From: Naegleria gruberi
Lineage: Eukaryota
NCBI GenBank assembly: GCA_000004985.1
Contig: GG738903.1
DNA: 64,000 nt
Direction: 5' to 3' (one strand)
Position numbers and translations under genes: made by a program. The notes under the pieces are model-generated. The model was not told the origin of the DNA. It did no database searches and saw only the letters and a program-made list of their open reading frames with translations. Shown in pieces: positions 3,377 to 62,323 of the stretch. Numbering within the stretch: position 1 is the first letter of the stretch; every line of letters begins with the position of its first letter.

Positions 3377-4168
3377 ATGGAATACATTGGGGCCAATCTC
3401 ATTCTCTCCTATTCATCTGCAGAAAAGAATGCAATCATCACACACGATAAAAGATCAACTACTGCCATCATTAATCAAGATGATGAATTTATTCCATTTC
3501 TCTATCTAGGAGGAAAGACAGCTGCAGAAATTGATCATCAAGCACTTTATGAAGCATTCTCAATTACTCATCTATTGAATGTGAGTGAAACTCCTAATAA
3601 TAATACTTGTTGTAATATTAAATCAAACTCCGATGATGAGAATGAAAATAATTTAATAATTGATGATGAAAATGAAAATAATGAAAAGGAGACAAATTCA
3701 CCCATTCAAAGTCTTCATCTTCCGTTCCTTGATGCTCCGAATGGTAAATTGGAACACATTCTGCCACAAGCTTTCGAATTTATTGAGAAATGTTTCGAAC
3801 AGAAAGGTTGTTTATTGGTGCATTGTAGAGCTGGAGTTTCTCGTTCAGCAAGTGTGGTGGCTGCCTTTATAATGTATCGATTTGGATTCAATCTAAAAAG
3901 AGTTCTATCTCTAATGAAAGAGAGGAGACCTTCGGTGGATCCAAACTTTGGTTTCATTTACAAATTGAAAGAGTTGGAGAAGCAGTATTGTGATGAGAAG
4001 GATTTAGTGGATAGTATTAATGTGGAGGAGGTGTGGAGCAAGTATTGGTATGATTATGAGATGGTGAAGGAGTGGACACAAAGTGAAATTGCTGAACTGT
4101 TTAGTATGGATGGAGATTTTGATGAGAATGTGGAAACACTAATTTCATTAAGGAATAGATCAAAATAA
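3377..4168 (+). CDS. dual-specificity protein phosphatase (DUSP) with an N/D/E-rich insert
   Basis: Active-site signature VHCRAGVSRSAS (HCxxGxxRS) followed by a typical DUSP C-terminus. First in-frame ATG is at 3377 (MEYIG...). The ORF-track start at 3317 is TTG. Confidence 0.7.
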   Translation: MEYIGANLILSYSSAEKNAIITHDKRSTTAIINQDDEFIPFLYLGGKTAAEIDHQALYEAFSITHLLNVSETPNNNTCCNIKSNSDDENENNLIIDDENENNEKETNSPIQSLHLPFLDAPNGKLEHILPQAFEFIEKCFEQKGCLLVHCRAGVSRSASVVAAFIMYRFGFNLKRVLSLMKERRPSVDPNFGFIYKLKELEKQYCDEKDLVDSINVEEVWSKYWYDYEMVKEWTQSEIAELFSMDGDFDENVETLISLRNRSK

Positions 4169-4226: not shown

Positions 4227-4299
4227 GCCCGTCTAGCTCAGTCGGTAGAGCGCAAGGCTCTTAACCTTGTGGTCGTGGGTTCGACCCCCACGGTGGGCG
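4227..4299 (+). tRNA. tRNA-Lys (anticodon CUU)
   Basis: GCCCGTCTAGCTCAGTCGGTAGAGCGCAAGGCTCTTAACCTTGTGGTCGTGGGTTCGACCCCCACGGTGGGCG folds as a cloverleaf with A and B boxes, a 7-nt anticodon loop CTCTTAA and a 7-bp acceptor stem. It is near-identical to metazoan/fungal tRNA-Lys-CTT. A T-run lies 5 nt downstream. Confidence 0.9.
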
Positions 4300-4386: not shown

Positions 4387-5025
4387 TTAAAAGAAACCCC
4401 ATGCTTTGAATTGTCTTGAAATTCTTTTGCATGCTTCCATAACTTGTGGTTTCAAATCTTTGGAAAGATCTTTTGGATTATCCAAGAATGCAAATGGAAC
4501 AGCATTTGTAACTTTATCCACAAATTGCTTCTCTGACATTGACTCTGTGAAATGTGTTAAAACAATCATTGGATTGAAAGGAAGCCCCTTTACATCTGTT
4601 TCTTTAACAGCATTTTGGAATTTGACAAATTTTTGTAAAGAAACAGAATTCCATTCACAAGCTCTACAAACAAAAATAACTGCGTCAATTCTATTATCGA
4701 GGTCAATCTTGTTTGTCAAGTAATTTTCCACTAAATTAGTTCCGGTCTTGATTCCTTGCAAGATTAATTTTAAGGTATTCAAGTCGTCTGGATTTTCGAA
4801 TGGTTTACCAGCAGAATCAAACAACAACAAGTTGGCAGACGAAACTGGAACACTTTCGTAAAGTAAGGTACCAACTTCTGCCTTTCTTCCAACATCACAT
4901 GTTTCAACCATGATATTTGGATTGAAAAATTTGAGGAGAGTGTTGATGAAGGATGATTTACCTGAATGTGGATCACCAACCACAAGAATTTTGAGAGGAA
5001 GGTTTGGGAGAGTTGTTAAAGACAT
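4387..5025 (-). CDS. P-loop GTPase, IIGP/IRG-like (first copy of a tandem pair)
   Basis: P-loop GDPHSGKSSFINTLL (IIGP-like GxxGxGKSSFIN); conserved block CDVGRKAEVGT; G3 LFDSAG. ATG at 5025 (MSLTTLPNL...); the track start at 5058 is GTG. It is a paralog of the gene at 5212–5962. Confidence 0.5.
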   Translation of the reverse strand: MSLTTLPNLPLKILVVGDPHSGKSSFINTLLKFFNPNIMVETCDVGRKAEVGTLLYESVPVSSANLLLFDSAGKPFENPDDLNTLKLILQGIKTGTNLVENYLTNKIDLDNRIDAVIFVCRACEWNSVSLQKFVKFQNAVKETDVKGLPFNPMIVLTHFTESMSEKQFVDKVTNAVPFAFLDNPKDLSKDLKPQVMEACKRISRQFKAWGFF

Positions 5026-12420: not shown

Positions 12421-12690
12421 ACTGAATGTTGATCAATTCCAGTTCATACACAAGAGCATAACAATTGTTGTCATGTTGTTGTTGTGGAAAGGAACGTGTG
12501 TTAGGAGGTTTCGGTAAATTGTTGAAGATTGTTATTGTGGAAAGTCTACTATTTAGAAACAAACATTTCTTGTTAAAACTGAGACAGTTGTAATCATCTC
12601 CTTCCATATGAATGGCAATCTCGCGTTTTTTAAAAAGTGGATGCACCCAACAAATATGGTAAGGAAATTCGTAAGAAAGAAAAAAAGTAG

Positions 12691-12763
12691 TGGAGATGCG
12701 GGGTATCGATCCCCGTACCTCTTCCATGCTAAAGAAGCGCTCTACCATGTGAGCTACATCCCC
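12691..12763 (-). tRNA. tRNA-Ala (anticodon AGC)
   Basis: The reverse complement reads GGGGATGTAGCTCACATGGTAGAGCGCTTCTTTAGCATGGAAGAGGTACGGGGATCGATACCCCGCATCTCCA. The anticodon loop TTAGCAT gives AGC, a G3:U70 pair is present, and the T-arm GGGGATCGATACCCC matches eukaryotic tRNA-Ala. An oligo-T terminator follows on the minus strand (aaaaaaag on plus). Confidence 0.85.
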
Positions 12764-15467: not shown

Positions 15468-16061
15468 TTAAACATTGGAAGGTAAATTATTGAATGAAAT
15501 TTGGTGTATTTCATTATCACCAAAAATTAAAGCAAAGGAATTGAGAGTGAAATCAAACTGTTTAGCTGATGAAGTTATTTCACTTAATTCCGATCTATAT
15601 TTCTCATCTGTATATGCTATTGAGACATGTGACTCGTTCTCATTGTATGCAATCGTTCCCTTAGTTAATTCTCCACATTTTCTTCTGAATTGAAGAAATG
15701 ACATTTGATCTTCAATGAATTTCTCAATCTTTATACTTGCAAAGAGACAAATCACCTTCTTATCTTTGATTCTATCCACATCTGATACATGAAAAGAGTC
15801 TACCGAAGCCTTGAATGGATATAATTTGTTTTCTGGATTATTTACAAAATCCTTAACTGCTTGAAGAGCAGTTTCCTTGTATTCGTTCGGAATCTTCACA
15901 ACAAGAGTAGAGTGAAAATTGTGTTGTGGTTCTCCTTTAATTTTATGACCATGATTGTCCAATCGCCATTCCTTCTCCACAAGATTATAAATATTTTCGA
16001 ATGATCTGGCAACATCATCTTCCATCTTTAAGCAACTGTACCCAAATTTACGTGGAGCCAT
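15468..16061 (-). CDS. 2H phosphoesterase superfamily protein (LigT/CPDase/Usb1-like)
   Basis: Two H-x-[ST]-x motifs, NFHSTLVV and ESHVSIAY, sit about 90 aa apart. ATG at 16061 (MAPRKFGY...). The track start at 16076 is TTG. Confidence 0.5.
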   Translation of the reverse strand: MAPRKFGYSCLKMEDDVARSFENIYNLVEKEWRLDNHGHKIKGEPQHNFHSTLVVKIPNEYKETALQAVKDFVNNPENKLYPFKASVDSFHVSDVDRIKDKKVICLFASIKIEKFIEDQMSFLQFRRKCGELTKGTIAYNENESHVSIAYTDEKYRSELSEITSSAKQFDFTLNSFALIFGDNEIHQISFNNLPSNV

Positions 16062-16096
16062 TTTTTTTGTAAACAATTAGCAATTTCAAAAGTGCA

Positions 16097-17272
16097 TTAA
16101 TTTATCAAATCATCGAGCCAATCATCTAAATCACCTGCTTTCTCTTGGGTTTTTGGGTTTTCTGGAGATGTTTGTTTTGGCAGTGTTGCTGATGTTGTAG
16201 GAATGGATTGGGTAGAGATTGGAAGGGTTGGGTTAATTGGACTAGTAATTTTCGGAATTGTTGCTGAGCTAGATGAAGGGTTTGGATGCATTGAAAGTAA
16301 ATCATCCAGAATGTCATCATTCTTCAAATCAATTTTAACTGGTTCAACTTTAGGTTTTGGAAGTGTGAAAGTGGTGTGCTTGACTTCATTTTCCATAATT
16401 TCATCCAGAATGTCCATTGAATCGTCTTGTTTCTTTTCTGTAGTTTGTTCTTGTTGGGTGGTTATTTGCTCGACTGGTGCTTTGGTTGGTACACTTGGTT
16501 CTTCTTGCATTGGTTCAGCATCGTTTTCACTATCAGATGAAATATCTTCCACTTGCTGTTGTTGTGTTGTCTTGGATTTCAAATATTGACTAAATGGTAC
16601 AAATGATGATGATGGTACATTTTCGGTATTTTCTTCTGGTGAGCTATTGGATGGGAAAGGTTGAATGTCAATTAACTTTAATCTTCTTTCAACAGAAATA
16701 CTTGGATCCTTGAGCAAAGTTGCCAATTTAGATTGATCCAAGTAGAATAATTTTGACATTATAGAGTCAGCATCTGATGAATCTAATTTTTCTTCTTCCC
16801 ATTCCAATAATCCTCTAGAAGTTCCTGGTGATGCAAATGACTGTGTCAAAGTTACACTATTAGAAATCATCATCATGGTTTCCTTTTCCATTCTATTTAA
16901 TTCATGTTGTAATTTTGCTTGAAATTTCCTTTCTTCTGCTTCTGGTGTTTGCACTTCATCGTCTTCCTCCGATTTAAATCTAAAAGAATTATCAACAAGA
17001 GATCTTTTACCATATTTTGCTCTCTTTAAATTTTCCTCTTGTTGCATCATTTCAAGTTCCTCCTGATCAACATCTTCATTATCATTCACAGTTTGAATGC
17101 TTCTTCTAAATCCAGTACCAGACATTTGTCCAGTGATCATGAAATGTTTATTCGATCGGGATGATGAATGTTGTTGATGTTTCTTGTTTTTAGTATGAAA
17201 CTTGGAAGGCTTCTTCTTGACTTCTCCTCCCGAAGATGATGAAGCATTGGTTTTACTTTTCTTTTCGCTCAT
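16097..17272 (-). CDS. acidic Ser/Glu/Thr-rich low-complexity protein (391 aa)
   Basis: ATG at 17272. Compositionally biased with a K-rich N-terminus. No domain assignment. Confidence 0.45.
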   Translation of the reverse strand: MSEKKSKTNASSSSGGEVKKKPSKFHTKNKKHQQHSSSRSNKHFMITGQMSGTGFRRSIQTVNDNEDVDQEELEMMQQEENLKRAKYGKRSLVDNSFRFKSEEDDEVQTPEAEERKFQAKLQHELNRMEKETMMMISNSVTLTQSFASPGTSRGLLEWEEEKLDSSDADSIMSKLFYLDQSKLATLLKDPSISVERRLKLIDIQPFPSNSSPEENTENVPSSSFVPFSQYLKSKTTQQQQVEDISSDSENDAEPMQEEPSVPTKAPVEQITTQQEQTTEKKQDDSMDILDEIMENEVKHTTFTLPKPKVEPVKIDLKNDDILDDLLSMHPNPSSSSATIPKITSPINPTLPISTQSIPTTSATLPKQTSPENPKTQEKAGDLDDWLDDLIN

Positions 17273-23678: not shown

Positions 23679-25203
23679 ATGTCCAAACATGCAATGCTCA
23701 CAAATTATGGACACAAGCTGTGCAGTTTATTCACCAAAGGATCCCAATTGCAATTCCTTTTGATCAAACGACCACAATTCAGCGACGACAATCGTGGTTT
23801 TGCAATTCAACAAAATGACGACCTGAAAGGACACCGAAAGATTACCATAGAATCAAATTTTCCAGTCGGTGGACGAATGAATAAATCATTGGAGGAGAAT
23901 TATCATGTATTGGGTGGTGCTGATAGTGGTGGTGATGGTCAAGGATTGAAATTCCTTACTCAATCATTGGATGCTTTTGAAAAATGTTATCAAGTGGTCA
24001 ATCGGATGAGTTTGGAAAAGAATGATGAAAGAGTTGAGGTACAAAAAGTGAGCTATCTTTTGGGAAGATCACAAGTTGGGTTGTACATGATAAGGGACTT
24101 GATGAGGGATGGATTGACGACTGAAGAGTTTGAGTCTTCACATGAGTTATATTTGGATAATCTACCAAAAATTGGAATATCTATTGATGGTAAAGATGTT
24201 TCAAAGCTTGATTCGCCATCGATGAGACATGCACTATGGTTATGGCATTTGGAAAGGTTGATTTCCTTTGGTGACAATTTCACAAGGGAGAAACTAATTG
24301 CATTGTTCTATCTCATTATTCACACAATGTGGAATAGAGAACCAACTTACTCTCTTCATTACATGAGGTTATTTACTAATGAATATTCAAAGACGAAGAA
24401 GTTGTACACTAGCATATTGGGAGATTCATTGACGAACACGTGGTCTCAAGTTTTGGGCAGAATTTTCACAGAAAATGAATTTGATAATTTCAATGATTTG
24501 GATAGTGAGCTTCCTGTAAACCTTAAAAGTATGTATCATATATTCTCTGCGTTTATTTCATTTGCAGACAGTGAAAGCATTCCTGTCGACACTTATTTAA
24601 GAGCTTTGGATAAAGAGCAAGTGAATAATCCACTCAACACATACATTCCATTTATGAAAGTAATGATGGAAGATCAATTTGAAGACATTGAAACTGTATT
24701 GAAAATAATGGAGAAATCACCAATAACTAATCATCAAGCTAATGAAAAGAGATATGGAAAGTGGTGGACTATTTTTGAGTGAAAAGCATGAAAATATTGA
24801 GAGAATTAAGGATTTTAAATTCTATCCAGTTCTTTATTGGAAAGCTTGTGCTGTCAGTGAGCCATCATCTGATCGAGATTTGTCAGATATGAGAAATTTT
24901 GTAAAGCAACTTGAATTCTTCTCTGGAATGCCATCTCATTGTAAATTGTTAAATCTCAAAATAATGGATGAATATAATCATGGAAATTATGAACGAGTTT
25001 TGGAAATATTCAACTTCTCTGAAAAGCATTTCCATTCCCAAATCAAAATGGATGATGATTACTGTTCCACTTTTTATGGATGCCAAGCTTTACATAAATT
25101 AGGAAGAAAAGAAGAAGCACTTTCAATAATTCAAAAGAAAGTAACAAGATACGGTTCAATAGAAACATCATTTCATGAGTTGTTTTCAATTGTTAATAAA
25201 TAA
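23679..25203 (+). CDS. hypothetical protein; two overlapping ORFs (23679–24782 and 24742–25203) probably one gene
   Basis: The adjacent ORFs sit in frames 0 and +1 and overlap by 41 nt. The second starts with a true ATG. Either an unresolved short intron, a frameshift, or two overlapping genes. No recognised domain. Confidence 0.3.
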
Positions 25204-34157: not shown

Positions 34158-35210
34158 ATGGGCAATTCACAACCGGCATCAAATCTTGATGGCCAGACAA
34201 CGTATGATCGTTCAACGGGTGAACAAATAGTAAATTTTAATTTATTCTCCGATGATGAATGTAAGGAGAAAACCCATGAAGAAATTGAAGCAAGTCAAGT
34301 TGATTATTTCTCTTCGGATCAGAGATTGGATGAATTAAAAACAATTTTGGGAGAAGACATTGTTAATAACCAGTTGGAATACTATAAGAATGTTACAAAG
34401 GTAACTGAAGAGTGTTTGCCAGTGATGGCAATCACCAAAGATTATCCATTTATGGACGAGTATATAGGTCATTATTTGGTGGCATGTTTAATGAGGAAGA
34501 GTGAAAGTTTTGCTAAACATTCAAAGCCATTCAAGTGTTTGGATGATGGATATTTGGATGAAATTTTAGATGTGAATACTTTAAAGAAATATCCAACCAA
34601 AATTCTGAAACAGAAATTTGAAGAGTTTCATCAGGATTTCCAGTATTGCATGTCAGTGCCAAATTCAAATGAATATAGCAGAGTGATGGAGACTGTATCT
34701 TTGGAAACTGTTTTCAAAGAACCTTATTCTGCAATCCTTTCTCAACCAAATCAAATAGAAATTATCAAGTCTAGATTTTTACCAAAGCAAACTACTTTGG
34801 AAGTCAAGAAAATTGAGCACGAGCCGATGGAACCTTATATTTATAACCCAAAAACAGATACAGAAGAGGATTTTGAAAGAAAGTTAATAGCACTTTCACA
34901 AACTGATTTTTTGAAACAAGATATTGAGCTTGTGAAGGAGTGTTATCAAAAGGAGCAAGAATCGACAAGTGCCGATTGTTTTGGGAAATACAATTCTCTT
35001 TTGAGTATTTCTGAACTCGTTCTTTGCAAGAAGGAAATTCTCACACAATCACCACAATTAACATTTCCAAATATTGAAGACTCAGCACTTTTGGATTTTA
35101 AAAAAGATGGATCTTGTTCAGGAGTTCTTTTGAAAAATCATATTGAAAAACTATTTCCAAATATGCCAAAATTTCACTATCTATACTTTTATAACAAAGA
35201 TAATAATTAA
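34158..35210 (+). CDS. hypothetical 350-aa protein
   Basis: ATG at 34158 (MGNSQPAS...). Continuous ORF with acidic segments. No recognised domain. Confidence 0.45.
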   Translation: MGNSQPASNLDGQTTYDRSTGEQIVNFNLFSDDECKEKTHEEIEASQVDYFSSDQRLDELKTILGEDIVNNQLEYYKNVTKVTEECLPVMAITKDYPFMDEYIGHYLVACLMRKSESFAKHSKPFKCLDDGYLDEILDVNTLKKYPTKILKQKFEEFHQDFQYCMSVPNSNEYSRVMETVSLETVFKEPYSAILSQPNQIEIIKSRFLPKQTTLEVKKIEHEPMEPYIYNPKTDTEEDFERKLIALSQTDFLKQDIELVKECYQKEQESTSADCFGKYNSLLSISELVLCKKEILTQSPQLTFPNIEDSALLDFKKDGSCSGVLLKNHIEKLFPNMPKFHYLYFYNKDNN

Positions 35211-35252
35211 TATTTACAATAATTTCGTTTCCTGAAACAATTTCTTTTGAAC

Positions 35253-36320
35253 TTATTGGGAATGATCAGTAATGACCATTCTAGCAATGGTATTAACACA
35301 ATCAATGGCAGCATTCTCATTCTTGTTTATCCAATAATGCATCTTTACCTTGTTAATGACCACGTCATGGACAAAACCATTCATGCAATGATAGAATGAT
35401 GGATAGGAAAATTGAATGTGAATTCTTCTACAATTTACATGCTTTTGTAAATTATTGAGCATTTTGGTGCTTATTAAATTTTCATTACTGGAATCTGGAA
35501 TGAATTCAATTGATTCATCAAAGTCCTCAACTTGAAAATCTAACTCCTTATCTTGTGTGAAAATATCTGAATAATTATCTGAATCAAATCCACTGTGTCC
35601 AACAATTGAAAACTCAATAGGACCTTTCTGTGGAGGTTGGAATGTAGATTTTGCACAGATGCAAGCCCCTGAATGAGGAACTGAAATGTCGTAATGAGTA
35701 CTTCCAATCAGTGTCTTGAATTTGAAACTATTCCATGCAGATATAAATTTCGATTCTGGTTCTGACATCTCCATCAGCAATGGATCACTCAAAGCCAATT
35801 GCTTACCAGTATCACCAAGAAAGTGTCCCACATATGTATTTGCAATTGTACTCACAACATTTCCATATAAATCAGTCCATCCTCCACTGCTAGTTCTCTT
35901 CGATCCCAAATGAGGAGAACAAATAGTTGTCAACCCAATTGGCTCAAAATATTTAGAGAATTCATCCTCATATTCATTCATCAACACATAGGCAGCATAT
36001 CTACAATAGAGACCTCCTAACGAATGACCAATTAGGGAAAATTTAACCTTGTTGTTTCTTTCTGTAAATTTGGGTAAAATTTCCTTCCTGAAATATTCAA
36101 TAATTTCTTGGGCCATTCTCTTACCACCAACTGCCACTCCATGATGTGTGTCCTTGGAGTTTGATGATGGACGCAGAGTAAATAATTGATCATCGGGAAG
36201 AATTGAATCCAAAATTGGATATTTCTTATGAAATTCTAACTGGATGTCATGTTGTAAATATTCCATATCCTCGTGCTGGCCGTTATTTCCATGCGAGAGA
36301 ACAATAAAGTGATAAACCAT
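35253..36320 (-). CDS. DUF676-type putative serine esterase / alpha-beta hydrolase (355 aa)
   Basis: N-terminal FIVLSHGNNG and nucleophile elbow LIGHSLGG (GxSxG) match the DUF676 (Rog1/FAM135-like) lipase family. ATG at 36320. Confidence 0.6.
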   Translation of the reverse strand: MVYHFIVLSHGNNGQHEDMEYLQHDIQLEFHKKYPILDSILPDDQLFTLRPSSNSKDTHHGVAVGGKRMAQEIIEYFRKEILPKFTERNNKVKFSLIGHSLGGLYCRYAAYVLMNEYEDEFSKYFEPIGLTTICSPHLGSKRTSSGGWTDLYGNVVSTIANTYVGHFLGDTGKQLALSDPLLMEMSEPESKFISAWNSFKFKTLIGSTHYDISVPHSGACICAKSTFQPPQKGPIEFSIVGHSGFDSDNYSDIFTQDKELDFQVEDFDESIEFIPDSSNENLISTKMLNNLQKHVNCRRIHIQFSYPSFYHCMNGFVHDVVINKVKMHYWINKNENAAIDCVNTIARMVITDHSQ

Positions 36321-43401: not shown

Positions 43402-44487
43402 TTACTTCAATATTATTATTCGATGATTTTCCTTGTCTGCTATATAGAGCTCGCCAGTGATATGATTGATACACAATCCATTTGGATTTCCCTCACTGAA
43501 CTGGATTGATTTTAGGTAATTTCCCTCTGGTGAAAATATTAAAACTCTTCTATTAGTGATTCCATCACAAACAAGAATTTGTTTTGTGATCTTGTCTACT
43601 GTTACAGATGTTGGAAATTCAAACTCACCAACTCCATTACCTCTGCTACCAAATTTGAAAAATAATACCTTGCCTCTTGTATCTGTAACATACACTCTAT
43701 TATTATGTCTATCAGATATGATACATTGATTTTCATGATTGACTGTAATACCAAAAGGTGACTCCATTTTGAGCTTTCTTTCACATCTCTTTCCAAAAGC
43801 ATATAAAAAGTCACCATCCTTTGAAAGCACTTTAATTCTATGATTGGACGAATCTGATATGAATATATCACCATAATTTCCACCATTTTCAAAAGTATTC
43901 ACATGTATTCCACAAATTCCATTGAATTGATAGGGTCCATTGCCAGGTTTCAATCTTAGACCTCTCCTCCAAAGTTGTTCATGCTTTATCAAATCGTAAC
44001 AATAAATACATTCATCATCACCTGCAACTAATAAATTCCCATAAATATCTATTTCCATAAAAAGTGGTTTGAAAACCAAATCAATTTTATATTGAAATTC
44101 TCGTGTTGTTAAATCAAAGGCTTGAATCCTCCTATTGCCATGATCAGCAACTAGCAATATGTGATTTTCATGTGATATTTTTACATCGTATGGAAGTGAA
44201 AATTTGCCACATTCCGAATCCTCCCAAGAAGAAGCAATAATACCCAAACTATCTTCATCATAGGATGGCATTACCAATAATTTCGGAATGCAACCAACAA
44301 TCTTTAGAGAATCACTCAATCCACATTCCAAAAAATCTTTTGATTTTCTCATCCCTTTCCTCATATTTTCCGTTAATTTTCTCAAGAGCCAATCTAAATG
44401 ACTAAATTCCTCTTCCTCTTGATCAGTCTGCACATGATTAAAATCGTGTAGAATCAACACAAAGGTCACAGCTGATTCTCTTTTCAT
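43402..44487 (-). CDS. NHL-repeat beta-propeller protein (361 aa)
   Basis: ATG at 44487. Repeated NHL-type blades (LLVADHGNRRIQAFD; IFISDSSNHRIKVL; CIISDRHNNRVYVTD; LVCDGITNRRVLIFS; LYIADKENHRIIILK). Confidence 0.6.
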   Translation of the reverse strand: MKRESAVTFVLILHDFNHVQTDQEEEEFSHLDWLLRKLTENMRKGMRKSKDFLECGLSDSLKIVGCIPKLLVMPSYDEDSLGIIASSWEDSECGKFSLPYDVKISHENHILLVADHGNRRIQAFDLTTREFQYKIDLVFKPLFMEIDIYGNLLVAGDDECIYCYDLIKHEQLWRRGLRLKPGNGPYQFNGICGIHVNTFENGGNYGDIFISDSSNHRIKVLSKDGDFLYAFGKRCERKLKMESPFGITVNHENQCIISDRHNNRVYVTDTRGKVLFFKFGSRGNGVGEFEFPTSVTVDKITKQILVCDGITNRRVLIFSPEGNYLKSIQFSEGNPNGLCINHITGELYIADKENHRIIILK

Positions 44488-44493
44488 TTTTTT

Positions 44494-45434
44494 TTAAAAT
44501 TCAAAAACAAAAGGTTTTCCAATTAGTTTGTCTTCCTTATTGCCAATAACAGAAATTGCATTAATATACATTCTGTCACTCTCCTTCTCATAGGCAAATC
44601 CTCTTGCTTTTGGACAGTGATTATGACCAAAACAGTGTACCTTTAAATTTGTGAAATGATTCGAGTCCAACAATGTGGTCAACTCTTCAGATCCTCTCGA
44701 TGATCCATTTGATGTTCTATCCATATTGAATTTACAACATGGAAAGTGTGTCATTAGAATGTCAATATCATTCGGAATATTAAACGATGTCTTTTTACAA
44801 AACAAAGGTGGTGCCCAATTTCCTCTATATCTCACTCCATGAATCTTGATAGAATGATTATTATCGTCCACAATCGTCACACTTTCGTCCAACAGTAAAT
44901 AATATTGTGATTTGAGAGTGGATTTGGATTTTTCCTCTCGGAAATACTTTTGAAATCGTGGATAGACAATAATATCAGGTGACCATTCATGATTTCCTAT
45001 ATATTTAATAATTAATTATTAAATCATATAATATATGTAATAATATATTGATGATGATGATATATTTGTCATGTTCATAACCTACCCACAATCATGATAA
45101 TATATTTAAATACTCCATCACATTGTTTAATTAAATATTCAAAAAACGTGTCAACTTCTGTGAATAATCCAGTATTGGTAAAGTCACCACAATGCAGTAG
45201 AACATCACCTGCAGGCAGATCAACCATTTCATGCATACAATGTGTATCGGAAATGAGTACAAACTTCATGGGTTGAATTGGAAGATTTGAATGATGTTTT
45301 ATGGATCGTTGTGGAACTTGTAGTGTTGTAATTTCCTCTTCGATTGGAGATGTTGATTCTCCTCCTCCTACTACTTCCACTGATGATGTGTGATGATTCT
45401 TTTGATAGTAAAAACTGCTTTCGTTTTCATTCAT
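44494..45434 (-). CDS. calcineurin-like metallophosphoesterase, two exons (about 283 aa)
   Basis: Model join(complement(45086..45434), complement(44494..44996)). Exon 1 has ...KFVLISDTHC...GDVLLHCGDFTNTG...IMIVG, then donor G|GTAGGT and an 89-nt intron ending TATAG. Exon 2 completes the motif as IVGNHEW (GNHE) and later ...VHCFGHNH... Its stop, TAA at 44494–44496, is only 6 nt from the NHL gene ATG. Confidence 0.7.
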
Positions 45435-53802: not shown

Positions 53803-55164
53803 ATGCCAAACATCAACATTCGACTTCGACAAGCCAAAAACTTGGCAGCAAAAGACCTTTCCAAAACGTCGGACCCATTGGTAATTTGCACAGTTAACAA
53901 CAAGAAATCATTCAAGACAGAACCAATCATGATGGACTGCAATCCAAACTGGGAAACGCACAAGAAACCAATTAAACATGAATTTACGGTGAATTTTGAC
54001 AAATTAACAGACGTGATACAATTACAAGTGGAAGACTATAACATCTTCTCTAAAAACAAACCAATAGGAAGTTGTCAAATACCTCTTCAATTTTTAGAAA
54101 AATCAAAACCAATGGAATTTACATTTGATTTACGTGATACGAAACAAGCAATTGCTGGACAATTGGTAGTTTTATTGGAAGCAATGGATTTTGGAATTGT
54201 TCCTTCAACAACAACAGTGCCTATGTATCCTCTTCCGACACAGCAACCATATTCTCCTCCTATTTCTGTTGTGCAGACACAGCAACCACAACAACCACAG
54301 CCACAGATACAGCCACAACAGCCACAACAGCAACTAGTTGGAAATTTACAAAGGAATGACAGTAGTCCAACACTTGCTGCACTCAGACATGGATCTTTCC
54401 TGACCAATAATAATACAGGTGTTGGTGGTCAATCACCTATTCAACAGCATCCATTGCAAACTTCTCAGAGTTTTATCATGCAAAAAACGACAATGGATCA
54501 ACAACAATCATCAATGATGATGGGCACAGGAAGTAATAGTGTATATGGAATGCCACTACCACAACAATATGTCAATAATGGAATGCAACAACAGCAACAA
54601 CAGCCATTGACACATTCCAATTCGTTCATTAATTATTCACAACAACCACAACAACAACAACCACCATCAATGTATAATAATTCTCAGCAAGGAGTTAATA
54701 TAATTTCACCAAGTGCTAATAATAATAATAATATTGGAACTCAATATACTCCTCCACAACAGTATAATCAACAGTATAATCAGGGAATTGTTAATAGTCC
54801 AGGAAGTATTTCATCTCCTTCGAATTTACAACCAATGAATAATTCATCATCTTATAATTTAATGAATAATTGTCAACTACAAGGAAATGTACAAGCTCAA
54901 CAAATTCAACAAAATGATAATAGTGTATCTACTCCAAGAAAGGCATTGCCTACATTACCAGTTAAACAAGGAAGTACAAGTCCTCAAACAATTGGTCAAC
55001 CAACAATTGATTCACAAATTCCAAAACCAAATGAGCTACCTCAATCGAATCAATGGACTGGTGTTGTCACTGATCAATACATTGATTATGTAGTTTCCCA
55101 ACTTCCAATTCCACTCTCCATACCAGAATATTACCAACGTTTTGTAAAGCCATTTAAAATATAA
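53803..55164 (+). CDS. C2-domain protein with long Q/N/P-rich low-complexity C-terminus (453 aa)
   Basis: ATG at 53803. The N-terminal 100 aa fit a C2 fold (IRLRQAKNLAAKDLSKTSDPLVICTV...NPNWE...FTV....DVIQLQVEDYN...IGSCQIPL). The rest is poly-Q/PQ/N repeats. Confidence 0.6.
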   Translation: MPNINIRLRQAKNLAAKDLSKTSDPLVICTVNNKKSFKTEPIMMDCNPNWETHKKPIKHEFTVNFDKLTDVIQLQVEDYNIFSKNKPIGSCQIPLQFLEKSKPMEFTFDLRDTKQAIAGQLVVLLEAMDFGIVPSTTTVPMYPLPTQQPYSPPISVVQTQQPQQPQPQIQPQQPQQQLVGNLQRNDSSPTLAALRHGSFLTNNNTGVGGQSPIQQHPLQTSQSFIMQKTTMDQQQSSMMMGTGSNSVYGMPLPQQYVNNGMQQQQQQPLTHSNSFINYSQQPQQQQPPSMYNNSQQGVNIISPSANNNNNIGTQYTPPQQYNQQYNQGIVNSPGSISSPSNLQPMNNSSSYNLMNNCQLQGNVQAQQIQQNDNSVSTPRKALPTLPVKQGSTSPQTIGQPTIDSQIPKPNELPQSNQWTGVVTDQYIDYVVSQLPIPLSIPEYYQRFVKPFKI

Positions 55165-55180
55165 ATCCAAATCTGGACAT

Positions 55181-56131
55181 TTGAATGATTTGAAACTTTT
55201 TAAAAAAATGATAAAACGAACAATTGAAACTCTTGTTGATGAAGCAAATGTTGGATCTGAAACAAAAAAGACGAAACTCACTCATGAAGTTTTCAATGAT
55301 GATATTCTGGGTGAAATTTTATCCTTCCATGATGATTTTAAATTCATTGTATTGAATTGTGCATTAGTTTCGAAACAGTGGTTGAATGTCATATTGGAAA
55401 GATCAAGACTTTGTTTTCGATGTTATAGTAACAATTTGAAAGGTCGATTTTTACAAAATATTGCAACTTTGGTGGTGAGATTTGGAACTGTCGAATTTGA
55501 TTATCAAATACTTGGTCTGATGAAACGTTTATCACATCTTCGAGCTTGTTTTAATGATATTGGTGTTGAAGGGGCTAAACACATCAGTCAATTGAAACAA
55601 TTAACTTTTCTTGGAGTGAGTGGTAATTTTGTTGGAGTGGAAGGAGCCAAATACATTAGTCAATTGAAACAATTGACAAACCTAGATATTTGTTTTAATA
55701 ATATTGGAGATGAGGGAGCAAAACACATTAGTGAATTGAAACAATTGAAAAATCTCAAAATTGGAAACAATTACATTGGTGTTGAAGGTGCCAAATATAT
55801 TAGTCAACTGAAACATGTAACCAAGCTTTCTATTAGTTATAACAATGTCAGAGTTGAGGGGGTTAAATACATTAGTGAAATGAAACAATTAACTGATCTT
55901 AACATTGGTGAGAATGTAATTGGTGATGAAGGAGCTAAACATATTAAGAAATTGAATCAATTGACTAGATTAAGTATTTCAGGTGTTGAAATAAGTGAAG
56001 CAGGAGCTAAATACATTTGTGAAATGAAACAATTAACACAGCTCAATATTAAGAATAATAACATTGGCAAAATAGGCAAGGAATATATCTGTACTGAACT
56101 GAAATATTTAATTGATCTTGAAGTGTACTGA
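55181..56131 (+). CDS. F-box-like / RNI-type LRR protein (316 aa), paralog of 52418–53722
   Basis: ATG at 55181, only 16 nt after the upstream stop. Repeats are NNIGDEGAKHISELKQLKNLKIGNNYIGVEGAKYISQLK... Confidence 0.6.
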   Translation: MNDLKLFKKMIKRTIETLVDEANVGSETKKTKLTHEVFNDDILGEILSFHDDFKFIVLNCALVSKQWLNVILERSRLCFRCYSNNLKGRFLQNIATLVVRFGTVEFDYQILGLMKRLSHLRACFNDIGVEGAKHISQLKQLTFLGVSGNFVGVEGAKYISQLKQLTNLDICFNNIGDEGAKHISELKQLKNLKIGNNYIGVEGAKYISQLKHVTKLSISYNNVRVEGVKYISEMKQLTDLNIGENVIGDEGAKHIKKLNQLTRLSISGVEISEAGAKYICEMKQLTQLNIKNNNIGKIGKEYICTELKYLIDLEVY

Positions 56132-60422: not shown

Positions 60423-60493
60423 TGCATTAGCCGGGAGTCGAACCCGGGTCACCAGCTTGGAAGGCTGGTATGATACCGTTACACTACTAATGC
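60423..60493 (-). tRNA. tRNA-Gly (anticodon UCC)
   Basis: The reverse complement reads GCATTAGTAGTGTAACGGTATCATACCAGCCTTCCAAGCTGGTGACCCGGGTTCGACTCCCGGCTAATGCA. The anticodon loop CTTCCAA gives TCC, and the T-arm GGGTTCGACTCCC is canonical. It is near-identical to eukaryotic tRNA-Gly-TCC. A T-run follows on the minus strand. Confidence 0.9.
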
Positions 60494-61357: not shown

Positions 61358-62323
61358 CTAAGAATATATAAGTACTCCAAATTGTCCACTATCACATACA
61401 TAAAGTAGACCACTTAATGGATCAATAATAATTCCAAAACTCTTATAATTTCCACTAACAGATTTAACTTTTGATAAATCCTCCCTTCTAACCACAACAA
61501 GTCTATAACCACCATTATCTGATACATAAATCAAATCAGAGGCCTTCTCATAGAATATAGAATAGGCAAAATTCATTCTAAAAGATGATTTTCGAATAGA
61601 ATTCCATTTTCCTTGCTGTTTTTCAAATAATTCTAAACAAGAATTATGACTCATTAATATTTCATTCTCAGAAAAGCAATGAATACCAAAACCACCACCC
61701 TCAATTTTCCCAATATCATCATCTAAATATTGTAAATGATCTCCATGTTCACGATCTAATATCATAACTGATTTTTCATAATCCACAACATAGAGTTGGG
61801 ATCCCATAACATCCAATCCCCAGATATTATAGTAAGTTTCTTTAGATTTCCAAACAAGAAGTGGATTCTTCCTCATTATATCAGAAACCTTAATCTTTAC
61901 AACATATGGATCAGTAGATGCATAAATATATTCCTCATCCTTCTCCTTAATCAATTTCAAACAATTAAAACAAGTAATTTCCTCAAACTCAACTTCAAAC
62001 AAGGCCTTCCTTCCAATTGACTTGTTTTCATACTCTTCAGCTGTCTCTGCTCTCGGAAAAACACTCAGTGCCGAACCATTCGTTACAATAAATCTATAAT
62101 AATCATTGGAGAGAACAATATCAAAACAATTCGGACCAACATGCCATGCAGAATAATAACCACTAACATTCAGTGATGAAAATTCGAGAGAGTATCGTTT
62201 GGTGGGGATGATATTAATTTTATATTTTAGGAGGTTAATTAAATTATTATTATCGTGATGATCATCATCAGTGGAAGTAAATTGGGACGGAAGAAAATCT
62301 ATCAGCTCAACCTTTACAGACAT
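61358..62323 (-). CDS. NHL/YVTN-like beta-propeller protein (321 aa)
   Basis: ATG at 62323. Blade-like units are LYVVDYEKSVMILD, IYVSDNGGYRLVVV and LYVCDSGQFGVLIY. Confidence 0.5.
   Translation of the reverse strand: MSVKVELIDFLPSQFTSTDDDHHDNNNLINLLKYKINIIPTKRYSLEFSSLNVSGYYSAWHVGPNCFDIVLSNDYYRFIVTNGSALSVFPRAETAEEYENKSIGRKALFEVEFEEITCFNCLKLIKEKDEEYIYASTDPYVVKIKVSDIMRKNPLLVWKSKETYYNIWGLDVMGSQLYVVDYEKSVMILDREHGDHLQYLDDDIGKIEGGGFGIHCFSENEILMSHNSCLELFEKQQGKWNSIRKSSFRMNFAYSIFYEKASDLIYVSDNGGYRLVVVRREDLSKVKSVSGNYKSFGIIIDPLSGLLYVCDSGQFGVLIYS

What the first reader, a model, noticed from the sequence alone, without database searches (positions are those of the whole stretch)
43402..45434. Metallophosphoesterase ORF and NHL-propeller ORF are in the same frame, separated by a single TAA inside an A/T homopolymer
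The metallophosphoesterase ORF (two exons, GNHE motif restored by splicing) ends …KPFVFEF-TAA at 44494–44496. The NHL-repeat ORF begins ATG six nucleotides later, and both use the same minus-strand reading frame (GAA TTT TAA AAA AAA ATG AAA). Three readings are possible. This could be an extremely tight gene pair. It could be a single phosphoesterase–NHL fusion gene with a stop introduced by a homopolymer sequencing error. Or it could be a programmed stop-codon readthrough. A phosphoesterase–NHL fusion would be an unusual architecture.
Basis: seen in the sequence. Interest (0 to 1): 0.5.

Follow-up and report, generated by a model that had tools for sequence, protein, structure and literature searches.

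The report
Two tightly packed Naegleria genes, not fused
In this Naegleria gruberi window a phosphoesterase gene and an NHL-propeller gene sit only six bases apart in the same frame, but they are two ordinary separate genes rather than a fusion, a sequencing error or a stop-codon readthrough.

Summary
The window is Naegleria gruberi. The two-exon metallophosphoesterase (MPE, 283 aa, identical to annotated XP_002671752.1) ends FVFEF-TAA at 44496-44494. A 361-codon NHL ORF starts at 44487, six bases later and in the same frame.

The fusion and readthrough readings fail:
- The stop is the family's natural end. Every heterolobosean homolog aligned ends PFVFxF-stop, including a second N. gruberi copy and a related contig (L003).
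- No 1-2 nt indel in the T4A9 tract can fuse the ORFs.
- In L003 the same gene pair is 16 nt apart and out of frame, so the shared frame is a coincidence.
- No listed homolog of either protein carries the other's domain.
- In N. lovaniensis the two genes lie on different contigs.

The "homopolymer" is the organism's standard start context. A run of six or more A directly before ATG marks 19 of 39 long-ORF starts against 5 of 2,589 other ATGs.

Two points remain of minor interest. The NHL gene appears to have no deposited N. gruberi protein model. A 6-nt spacer also forces either overlapping transcription units (favoured) or a bicistronic mRNA, and only RNA data can decide between them. Overall this is ordinary.

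The parts
45086..45434 (-). MPE exon 1 (ATG at 45434). It encodes the N-terminal extension and the DxH (ISDTHC) and GD (HCGDF) metal-binding motifs.
   Evidence: Once spliced, the product is identical to XP_002671752.1.
44997..45085 (-). 89-nt GT..AG intron (GTAGGT...ATATAG), phase 1, which splits the GNHE motif.
   Evidence: The intron sits at the same position in the related contig L003.
44494..44996 (-). MPE exon 2 including the TAA stop. It carries GNHE and GHNH and ends ...GKPFVFEF.
   Evidence: dN/dS is 0.12 against L003.
44494..44496 (-). Genuine TAA stop of the MPE gene, formed by the last T of the T4 run and the first two A of the A9 run.
   Evidence: The stop falls at the same codon in P0002, L003 and all heterolobosean homologs aligned. 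It survives every A-run indel.
44488..44493 (-). 6-nt inter-ORF spacer (AAAAAA). With the two A of the stop it forms the 8-A run in front of the NHL ATG (A9 counting the A of the ATG).
   Evidence: A run of 6 or more A before ATG occurs at 19 of 39 ORF starts against 5 of 2,589 other ATGs, p 4e-33.
43402..44487 (-). NHL-repeat protein gene: 361 codons plus TAA (followed by a second TAA), no intron. No N. gruberi protein record was found for it.
   Evidence: There are orthologs in N. lovaniensis (45% identity) and in L003.
44206..44487 (-). N-terminal extension of the NHL protein (residues 1-94). It is poorly conserved and low-confidence, with a predicted helix at residues 24-51. It contains the motif (V)ILHDF, conserved in three species, upstream of the next in-frame Met at codon 42.
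43405..44205 (-). Six-bladed NHL beta-propeller (residues ~95-361).
   Evidence: The AlphaFold2 model has pLDDT mostly above 90 and 23 strands. The best Foldseek matches are TRIM-NHL domains with target TM-score 0.80-0.86.

Best explanation
These are two separate protein-coding genes of Naegleria gruberi packed head-to-tail.

The upstream gene encodes a complete MPPED2-like metallophosphoesterase. Its TAA at 44496-44494 is the natural, ancestral end of the protein. The downstream gene encodes a stand-alone NHL six-bladed propeller protein. Its ATG at 44487 carries the genus-typical start context, a run of A directly before ATG, often preceded by T.

The upstream ORF simply runs up to that start motif and uses the TAA formed at its T/A boundary as its stop. 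The shared reading frame is a coincidence. This much is shown.

The following is inferred. Only 6 nt separate the ORFs, so the two transcription units must share sequence. I judge about 60% likely that they are independent, overlapping mRNAs. In that case the NHL transcript starts in or just upstream of the A-run, with its core promoter inside the last part of the MPE coding sequence, and the MPE mRNA is polyadenylated inside the NHL coding sequence. I give about 20-25% to a bicistronic mRNA instead.
For: 1. Organism and gene model. The spliced MPE is identical to annotated N. gruberi XP_002671752.1. A second N. gruberi copy on another scaffold (P0002) is also 283 aa and also ends FVFEF.

2. 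Natural C-terminus. All heterolobosean MPE homologs in the alignment end PF(V/A/I)F(E/D/Y)F-stop, apart from a more divergent Willaertia end. They include N. fowleri, N. lovaniensis, two N. gruberi paralogs and metagenomic relatives.

3. Related contig L003. The MPE ends FVFDF-TAA. After 16 nt the NHL ortholog starts in a different frame, and reading through the stop ends after 23 codons.

4. Indels. No 1-2 nt indel in the T4A9 tract fuses the ORFs.

5. Start context.
- A run of 6 or more A before ATG occurs at 19 of 39 long-ORF starts against 5 of 2,589 other ATGs (odds ratio ~490, p 4e-33). The ORF at 61358-62323(-) has an identical context.
- 10 of 17 independently annotated starts in N. 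lovaniensis and N. fowleri have 5 or more A there, including the N. lovaniensis NHL ortholog.

6. True start. The peptide motif (V)ILHDF is conserved in three species and lies between Met1 and Met42, so ATG 44487 is the start.

7. Purifying selection. dN/dS is 0.12 for MPE exon 2 and 0.22 for the NHL N-terminus.

8. Self-contained propeller.

9. Domain architecture. None of the 120 listed MPE homologs has an NHL domain, and none of the 80 NHL homologs has a Metallophos domain.

10. Separate genes elsewhere. In N. lovaniensis the two genes are on different contigs. In N. fowleri, N. lovaniensis and two other heterolobosean contigs no NHL gene lies within the sequence held downstream of the MPE; where a downstream gene is called, it starts more than 200 nt away.

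11. Compact genome. Tandem spacers of 32-43 nt and convergent spacers of 21-42 nt occur elsewhere.

12. Literature. Comparative work finds Heterolobosea have about 2 genes per directon and none of the long directional gene clusters seen in Euglenozoa (bioRxiv 10.64898/2026.07.29.740908).
Against: - No RNA, TSS or poly(A) data could be consulted, so the transcript architecture is inferred, not shown.
- A 6-nt spacer (16 nt in the relative) is far below the other tandem spacers in the window. It leaves no room for a conventional promoter or a 3' UTR, which is what a bicistronic unit would also look like.
- The NHL ORF has no deposited N. gruberi protein model, so its expression is unproven.
- L003 is a short-read metagenome contig of an unidentified relative. 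If its A-run were one base shorter the frames would coincide, although its stop would remain.
- dS between the two species is near saturation (~1.5), so the dN/dS values are rough.
Confidence: 0.88

Rival explanations
1. Bicistronic mRNA. One transcript carries both ORFs. After terminating at UAA, ribosomes reinitiate 6 nt downstream, or initiate internally on the A-rich leader, to make the NHL protein as a separate polypeptide.
For: - The stop-to-start distance is 6 nt here and 16 nt in the relative L003. The adjacency, orientation and A9 run are conserved between the two.
- There is no room for a promoter or a 3' UTR in the spacer.
- No TGTAA or AATAAA motif occurs within 300 nt after the MPE stop.
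- Conserved bicistronic nuclear loci exist in other eukaryotes, for example green algae (PMC7896298, PMC11892635, abstracts).
Against: - Comparative genome architecture gives Heterolobosea about 2 genes per directon, with no polycistron-like clusters. I found no report of bicistronic transcripts in Naegleria.
- The upstream ORF is 283 codons with 8 in-frame Met codons (sequence). That rules out the leaky scanning used in green algae and makes reinitiation inefficient (established knowledge).
- The pairing is recent and lineage-specific. It is absent in N. lovaniensis, N. fowleri and other heteroloboseans.
- The NHL start has the same context as ordinary stand-alone genes.
Confidence: 0.2
2. 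Programmed stop-codon readthrough. A fraction of ribosomes decode the UAA and produce a 646-residue MPE-NHL fusion in addition to the 283-aa enzyme.
For: In N. gruberi the two ORFs share a frame with a single intervening stop and no other stop.
Against: - The frame relation is not conserved. In L003 the NHL ORF is in the +1 frame, and readthrough stops after 23 codons.
- UAA followed by A is the least leaky stop context (established knowledge).
- There is no stimulatory RNA structure (z +0.30) and no Rfam element.
- The downstream ORF begins with a canonical start motif and a conserved N-terminus.
- The fused architecture is not seen among homologs of either protein.
Confidence: 0.03
3. A single fusion gene whose stop is an assembly or sequencing artefact in the T4A9 tract.
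For: The stop lies at the boundary of two homopolymers, where length errors are most likely.
Against: - Every 1-2 nt indel tested leaves a stop at or within 20 codons of the same place. Only a substitution could fuse the ORFs.
- The allelic or second N. gruberi copy is also annotated as 283 aa ending FVFEF.
- L003 has the stop at the same codon.
- The whole family ends there.
Confidence: 0.01
4. A stop-removing intron. Constitutive or alternative splicing from a GT inside the MPE 3' end to an AG inside the NHL 5' end joins the two ORFs.
For: 63 in-frame, stop-free GT..AG combinations exist. One example is donor 44508 (GTTTTT) to acceptor 44428 (81 nt).
Against: - That number is what chance gives when both ORFs are open in one frame.
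- No donor resembles the real intron's GTAGGT.
- All candidates would delete part of the universally conserved PFVFxF C-terminus, and some would delete the GHNH catalytic motif.
- In L003 the frames differ, so the same intron could not work.
Confidence: 0.03
5. The NHL ORF is an unexpressed relic, which would explain why it has no gene model. In that case the junction is simply the MPE's 3' flank.
For: No N. gruberi protein record matches the ORF.
Against: - The ORF is an intact 361 codons in a 33%-GC genome.
- dN/dS is 0.22 against L003.
- There is 45% identity over 330 residues to an annotated N. lovaniensis protein.
- It has a canonical start context.
- It has a confident complete propeller fold.
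Confidence: 0.05

Closest known systems
MPPED2 / MPPED1 (239FB) family of calcineurin-like metallophosphoesterases
   Same: The Pfam Metallophos match covers the full profile. The best solved relative is MPPED2, 3rl4, E 1e-15. The DxH, GD, GNHE and GHNH motifs are all present.
   Different: It has a ~55-residue low-complexity N-terminal extension and a heterolobosean-specific C-terminal end, PFVFxF. Substrate and activity are unknown.
NHL domains of TRIM-NHL proteins (Drosophila Thin and Brat, TRIM71/LIN-41, TRIM2/3)
   Same: It is a six-bladed NHL propeller with 25-28% identity and target TM-score 0.80-0.86. The Pfam NHL score is 56.8 bits against a cutoff of 20.
   Different: No RING, B-box, coiled-coil or filamin module is present. 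There is only a ~95-residue, poorly conserved N-terminal extension with one predicted helix. RNA binding was not tested.
Overlapping or abutting transcription units in compact protist genomes
   Same: Spacers are very short and there is an A-rich start context. Neighbouring genes in this window are 35-116 nt apart, and spacers of 21-32 nt occur in N. lovaniensis.
   Different: The 6-nt spacer is the extreme of the distribution. No transcript mapping was available for Naegleria.
Conserved bicistronic nuclear loci of green algae (PMC7896298, PMC11892635)
   Same: Two conserved ORFs on one strand are separated by a very short spacer.
   Different: According to those papers, the algal loci depend on leaky scanning past the upstream ORF. 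Here the upstream ORF is long, with 8 in-frame AUGs. The pairing is recent, and no shared transcript has been shown.

Membership tests
Calcineurin-like metallophosphoesterase (PF00149), MPPED2-like | Profile match above the curated threshold | tested here: met
   PF00149 scores 49.3 bits against a cutoff of 21.5, covering profile positions 1-191 of 191. MPPED2 structures 3rl3-5 match at E 1e-15 to 2e-13.
Calcineurin-like metallophosphoesterase (PF00149), MPPED2-like | Metal-binding motifs DxH, GD, GNH[ED], H and GHxH | tested here: met
   ISDTHC, HCGDF, GNHE (restored by splicing), MTHFP and GHNH are all present. The corresponding residues are invariant or nearly invariant in alignment A1.
Calcineurin-like metallophosphoesterase (PF00149), MPPED2-like | Phosphoesterase activity | not testable with these tools
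   This needs an enzyme assay.
NHL-repeat six-bladed beta-propeller (PF01436) | Profile match above the curated threshold | tested here: met
   PF01436 scores 56.8 bits against a cutoff of 20. DUF5128, a 6-bladed propeller family, scores 37.7 against 22.9.
NHL-repeat six-bladed beta-propeller (PF01436) | Closed six-bladed propeller fold | tested here: met
   The AlphaFold2 model has 23 strands in six blades, with pLDDT above 90 over residues ~95-361. The top Foldseek hits are NHL domains with probability 1.00.
Programmed stop-codon readthrough | Downstream ORF kept in frame with the upstream ORF in related species | tested here: not met
   In L003 the MPE is in frame 2 and the NHL in frame 3. 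The readthrough frame closes after 23 codons.
Programmed stop-codon readthrough | Leaky stop context and/or a stimulatory downstream RNA structure | tested here: not met
   The context is UAA-A. The 121 nt from the stop onward fold no better than shuffles, z +0.30. There is no Rfam element.
Programmed stop-codon readthrough | Extended protein detected | not testable with these tools
   This needs proteomics or ribosome profiling.
Single fusion gene interrupted by an artefactual stop | A plausible sequencing error restores one ORF | tested here: not met
   None of eight 1-2 nt indel variants of the T4A9 tract fuses the ORFs.
Single fusion gene interrupted by an artefactual stop | Orthologs or homologs carry the fused architecture | tested here: not met
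   None of 120 MPE homologs has an NHL domain and none of 80 NHL homologs has a Metallophos domain. The genes are separate in N. lovaniensis. The family-wide C-terminus falls at the stop.
Eukaryotic bicistronic transcription unit | Conserved same-strand adjacency with a very short inter-ORF spacer | tested here: met
   The spacer is 6 nt in N. gruberi and 16 nt in L003. The pairing is absent in N. lovaniensis, N. fowleri, L015 and L016.
Eukaryotic bicistronic transcription unit | A single mature mRNA spans both ORFs | not testable with these tools
   No transcript data are accessible. Exact-protein look-ups in assemblies found nothing for N. gruberi.
Eukaryotic bicistronic transcription unit | Upstream ORF permissive for leaky scanning (short, few AUGs) | tested here: not met
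   The upstream ORF is 283 codons with 8 in-frame Met codons.

The most novel reading that the evidence does not exclude
The MPE-NHL pair is a genuine bicistronic mRNA in a heterolobosean, a lineage regarded as conventionally monocistronic. The second cistron would be translated by termination-reinitiation or by cap-independent initiation on the short poly(A)-like leader. If so, the genus-wide A-run before ATG would be a leader that can recruit ribosomes internally.
Probability: 0.15. Interest if true: 0.6.

Novelty: new member of a known kind. Interest (0 to 1): 0.15.

Why it matters
As posed, the finding does not matter much. There is no unusual phosphoesterase-NHL architecture and no recoding event.

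Three practical points come out of it:
1. A conserved 361-codon NHL-propeller gene appears to be missing from the deposited N. gruberi protein set, probably because it abuts its neighbour.
2. A run of six or more A directly before ATG is a near-diagnostic marker of gene starts in Naegleria. It could improve annotation and prevent similar false alarms.
3. The 6-nt spacer is a clean test locus. It can show how a very compact, supposedly monocistronic eukaryotic genome places a promoter and a poly(A) site when there is no intergenic DNA.

Tried and rejected
- **Alternative genetic code (TAA as a sense codon).** Rejected. Long ORFs are common under the standard code, and TAA ends 28 of 39 of them.
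- **Independent DNA of the junction from N. gruberi itself.** Exact-protein look-ups for both annotated MPE copies found no contig. The near-identical ENA contig L002 stops inside exon 1.
- **More junction-spanning relatives.** A JGI metagenome scan with the NHL protein returned only hits at 22-29% identity, with no close relatives.
- **Local synteny.** No N. gruberi neighbour gene has a homolog in the N. lovaniensis or N. fowleri loci I fetched. I cannot say which gene moved.
- **Poly(A) signal.** TGTAAA after stops looked promising by eye but is only weakly enriched, at 7 of 36 genes against 0.09 background. AATAAA is not enriched. The MPE 3' end cannot be placed.
- **Embedded promoter signal.** Synonymous divergence is lower in the last 40 MPE codons (pS 0.48 against 0.71, permutation p 0.048). 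A codon-identity test is not significant (p 0.42). This is inconclusive.
- **Stop-removing introns.** I enumerated the candidates and rejected them.
- **RNA structure and Rfam.** Nothing found.
- **Literature on Naegleria UTRs, TSSs, bicistrons or overlapping transcripts.** Nothing relevant is held. The 2010 genome paper is not in the library.
Full report
**What is there**

The window is nuclear DNA of Naegleria gruberi. It has about 33% GC, is gene-dense, and has short introns.

On the minus strand the junction reads GAA TTT TAA AAA AAA ATG AAA:
- the stop is at 44496-44494;
- a 6-nt spacer lies at 44493-44488;
- the ATG is at 44487.

Joining exon 1 (45434-45086) to exon 2 (44996-44494) across an 89-nt GT..AG intron restores GNHE and gives a 283-aa protein. 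This protein is identical to XP_002671752.1 / NAEGRDRAFT_73230. Pfam calls it Metallophos, and the closest solved relative is MPPED2.

The downstream ORF (44487-43402, 361 codons) is an NHL-repeat protein. The two ORFs are in the same frame, and the spliced read-through contains only the one internal stop.

**Is the stop real?**

Four independent lines say yes.

1. A second N. gruberi copy on another scaffold (NAEGRDRAFT_76255, P0002) differs by one residue. It is also annotated as 283 aa ending FVFEF.
2. An ENA metagenome contig from a related Naegleria (L003, 72-76% amino-acid identity) ends its enzyme with FVFDF-TAA at the homologous codon.
3. In an alignment of 13 homologs, the enzymes from N. 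fowleri, N. lovaniensis, two N. gruberi paralogs and the metagenomic relatives all terminate at the same PF(V/A/I)F(E/D/Y)F motif. Willaertia has a more divergent end at the same position. This is the natural C-terminus of the family.
4. I simulated every 1- and 2-nt insertion or deletion in the T4A9 tract. Changes in A-run length leave the TAA untouched. Changes in T-run length run into TGA or TAA within 3-20 codons.

A homopolymer length error therefore cannot have created the stop, and none can remove it.

**Is the shared frame meaningful?**

No. In L003 the same two genes are adjacent on the same strand, but they are separated by 16 nt (ataaattcaaaaaaaa). The NHL ortholog is in the +1 frame relative to the enzyme. 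Reading through L003's TAA meets another stop after 23 codons.

A shared frame has a 1-in-3 prior. UAA followed by A is a strong terminator context (established knowledge). The 121 nt from the stop onward fold no better than shuffled sequence (z +0.30), and no Rfam family matches.

I also enumerated GT..AG pairs that could splice out the stop. There are 63 in-frame combinations, which is expected when both ORFs are open in one frame. None has a donor like the genuine intron's GTAGGT. All would delete part of the conserved C-terminus or catalytic motifs.

**What the 'homopolymer' is**

Across the window, a run of six or more A directly before ATG occurs at 19 of 39 first ATGs of long ORFs. It occurs at only 5 of 2,589 other ATGs (odds ratio about 490, p 4e-33). 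In nine of the 39 starts the run is preceded by T, which makes a TAA triplet. The gene at 61358-62323(-) has exactly the same ttttaaaaaaaaATG context.

The same signature is present at 10 of 17 independently annotated gene starts in the N. lovaniensis and N. fowleri loci I fetched. One of these is the N. lovaniensis NHL ortholog, cacaaaaaaaATG.

So the A8-ATG at 44487 is a canonical gene start. The enzyme ORF happens to run up to it and uses the TAA at the T/A boundary as its stop.

**Is the downstream ORF a real, independent gene?**

- Its best homolog is a stand-alone 395-aa N. lovaniensis protein, with 45% identity over 330 residues. That protein lies on a different contig from the N. lovaniensis enzyme.
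- The L003 fragment aligns from its first residues. A short motif, (V)ILHDF, is conserved in all three species and lies upstream of the next in-frame Met (codon 42). This supports ATG 44487 as the true start.
- dN/dS against L003 is 0.22 for the NHL N-terminus and 0.12 for enzyme exon 2. dS is near saturation, so these values are rough.
- AlphaFold2 gives a confident, complete six-bladed propeller for residues ~95-361. The N-terminal extension is low-confidence and contains one helix.
- Foldseek's best matches are the NHL domains of Thin, TRIM71 and TRIM2/3.
- None of the 120 listed enzyme homologs carries an NHL domain. None of the 80 NHL homologs carries a Metallophos domain.
- In N. fowleri, N. 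lovaniensis and two other heterolobosean contigs no NHL gene lies in the sequence held downstream of the enzyme. Where a downstream gene is called, it starts more than 200 nt away.

The adjacency is therefore a recent arrangement of the N. gruberi lineage.

**An annotation gap**

The exact 361-aa sequence is not in the protein collection. The homology search returned no N. gruberi protein at all, although N. gruberi proteins are in the database. The gene seems to lack a deposited model.

**How it most likely works**

What is shown: there are two genes and two proteins.

What is inferred: with only 6 nt between the ORFs, the transcription units must share sequence. Naegleria packs genes very tightly anyway:
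- tandem spacers of 35, 43, 80, 101, 112 and 116 nt in this window;
- a tandem spacer of 32 nt and a convergent spacer of 21 nt in N. lovaniensis.

Comparative work treats Heterolobosea as lacking the long directional gene clusters of Euglenozoa, with about 2 genes per directon.

I therefore favour overlapping monocistronic mRNAs, at about 60%. The NHL transcript would start at or just upstream of the A-run, and the enzyme mRNA would be polyadenylated inside the NHL ORF. A bicistronic mRNA remains possible, at about 20%. I could not test this.

- A candidate poly(A) motif, TGTAAA, is only weakly enriched after stops.
- Synonymous divergence is only marginally reduced in the last 40 enzyme codons (pS 0.48 against 0.71, permutation p 0.048). 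A codon-identity test is not significant.
- No literature on Naegleria UTRs or bicistrons was found.

**Verdict**

Of the three readings offered, only 'extremely tight gene pair' survives. The feature is ordinary for this genome apart from the extreme spacing. Both proteins belong to known families.

The residual interest lies in the apparently unannotated NHL gene, the near-diagnostic A-run start signature, and the locus's value as a test case for transcript overlap versus bicistrony.

Noticed in passing
window 43402-44487 (-): The 361-codon NHL-propeller ORF has no matching N. gruberi protein in the collection. Other N. gruberi proteins are present, and orthologs exist in N. lovaniensis and L003. 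It is probably a gene missed by the deposited annotation.
   Followed up: partly
whole window; for example 2918(-), 36320(-), 58193(+), 62323(-): A run of 6-8 A directly before ATG, often preceded by T, C or G, is a near-diagnostic gene-start signature. It occurs at 19 of 39 long-ORF starts against 5 of 2,589 other ATGs. It is also seen at 10 of 17 annotated starts in N. lovaniensis and N. fowleri. Whether it is a transcribed poly(A)-like leader or only a Kozak-like context is unknown.
   Followed up: yes
window 5962(-), 14457(+), 22489(+), 25394(+), 47639(-): Five ATGs carry the A-run signature (6 or more A) but are not the first ATG of a long ORF. They may be short first exons of intron-containing genes, or small genes.
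   Followed up: no
L003 199-201: The related contig's phosphoesterase exon 1 has an in-frame TGA (ccg tcc TGA gat) where N. gruberi has GGT. This could be a pseudogene, a polymorphism or an assembly error in the metagenome contig.
   Followed up: no
window 44497-44616 (-) versus L003 800-919: The last 120 nt of the phosphoesterase CDS are 82.5% identical at the DNA level. Synonymous divergence there is lower than in the rest of exon 2 (pS 0.48 against 0.71, permutation p 0.048, but the codon-identity test gives p 0.42). This is a weak hint of an overlapping constraint, such as the NHL promoter.
   Followed up: partly
window 16061-16097 (-), 55164-55208 (+), 35210-35253: There are other very tight neighbours: tandem ORFs 35 and 43 nt apart and a convergent pair 42 nt apart. 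UTR or promoter overlap with neighbouring genes must therefore be common here.
   Followed up: no
window 23679-24782 (+) and 24742-25203 (+): Two same-strand ORFs overlap by 41 nt in different frames. They are probably two exons of one intron-containing gene rather than overlapping genes.
   Followed up: no
window 4227-4299 (+), 12690-12763 (-), 60423-60493 (-): Three tRNA genes are present: Lys-CTT, Ala-AGC and Gly-TCC. The tRNA-Lys begins 59 nt after the stop of the ORF ending at 4168.
   Followed up: no
L015 1201-2040 (-) and 2081-2824 (+): Another heterolobosean metagenome contig carries two phosphoesterase paralogs head-to-head, about 40 nt apart.
   Followed up: no
window, 5-100 nt after stop codons: TGTAAA / TGTACAAA recurs after several stops, for example after the genes at 4387, 10320, 18134, 28555 and 51431. 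It is only about 2-fold enriched (7 of 36 genes against 0.09 background). AATAAA is not enriched.
   Followed up: partly
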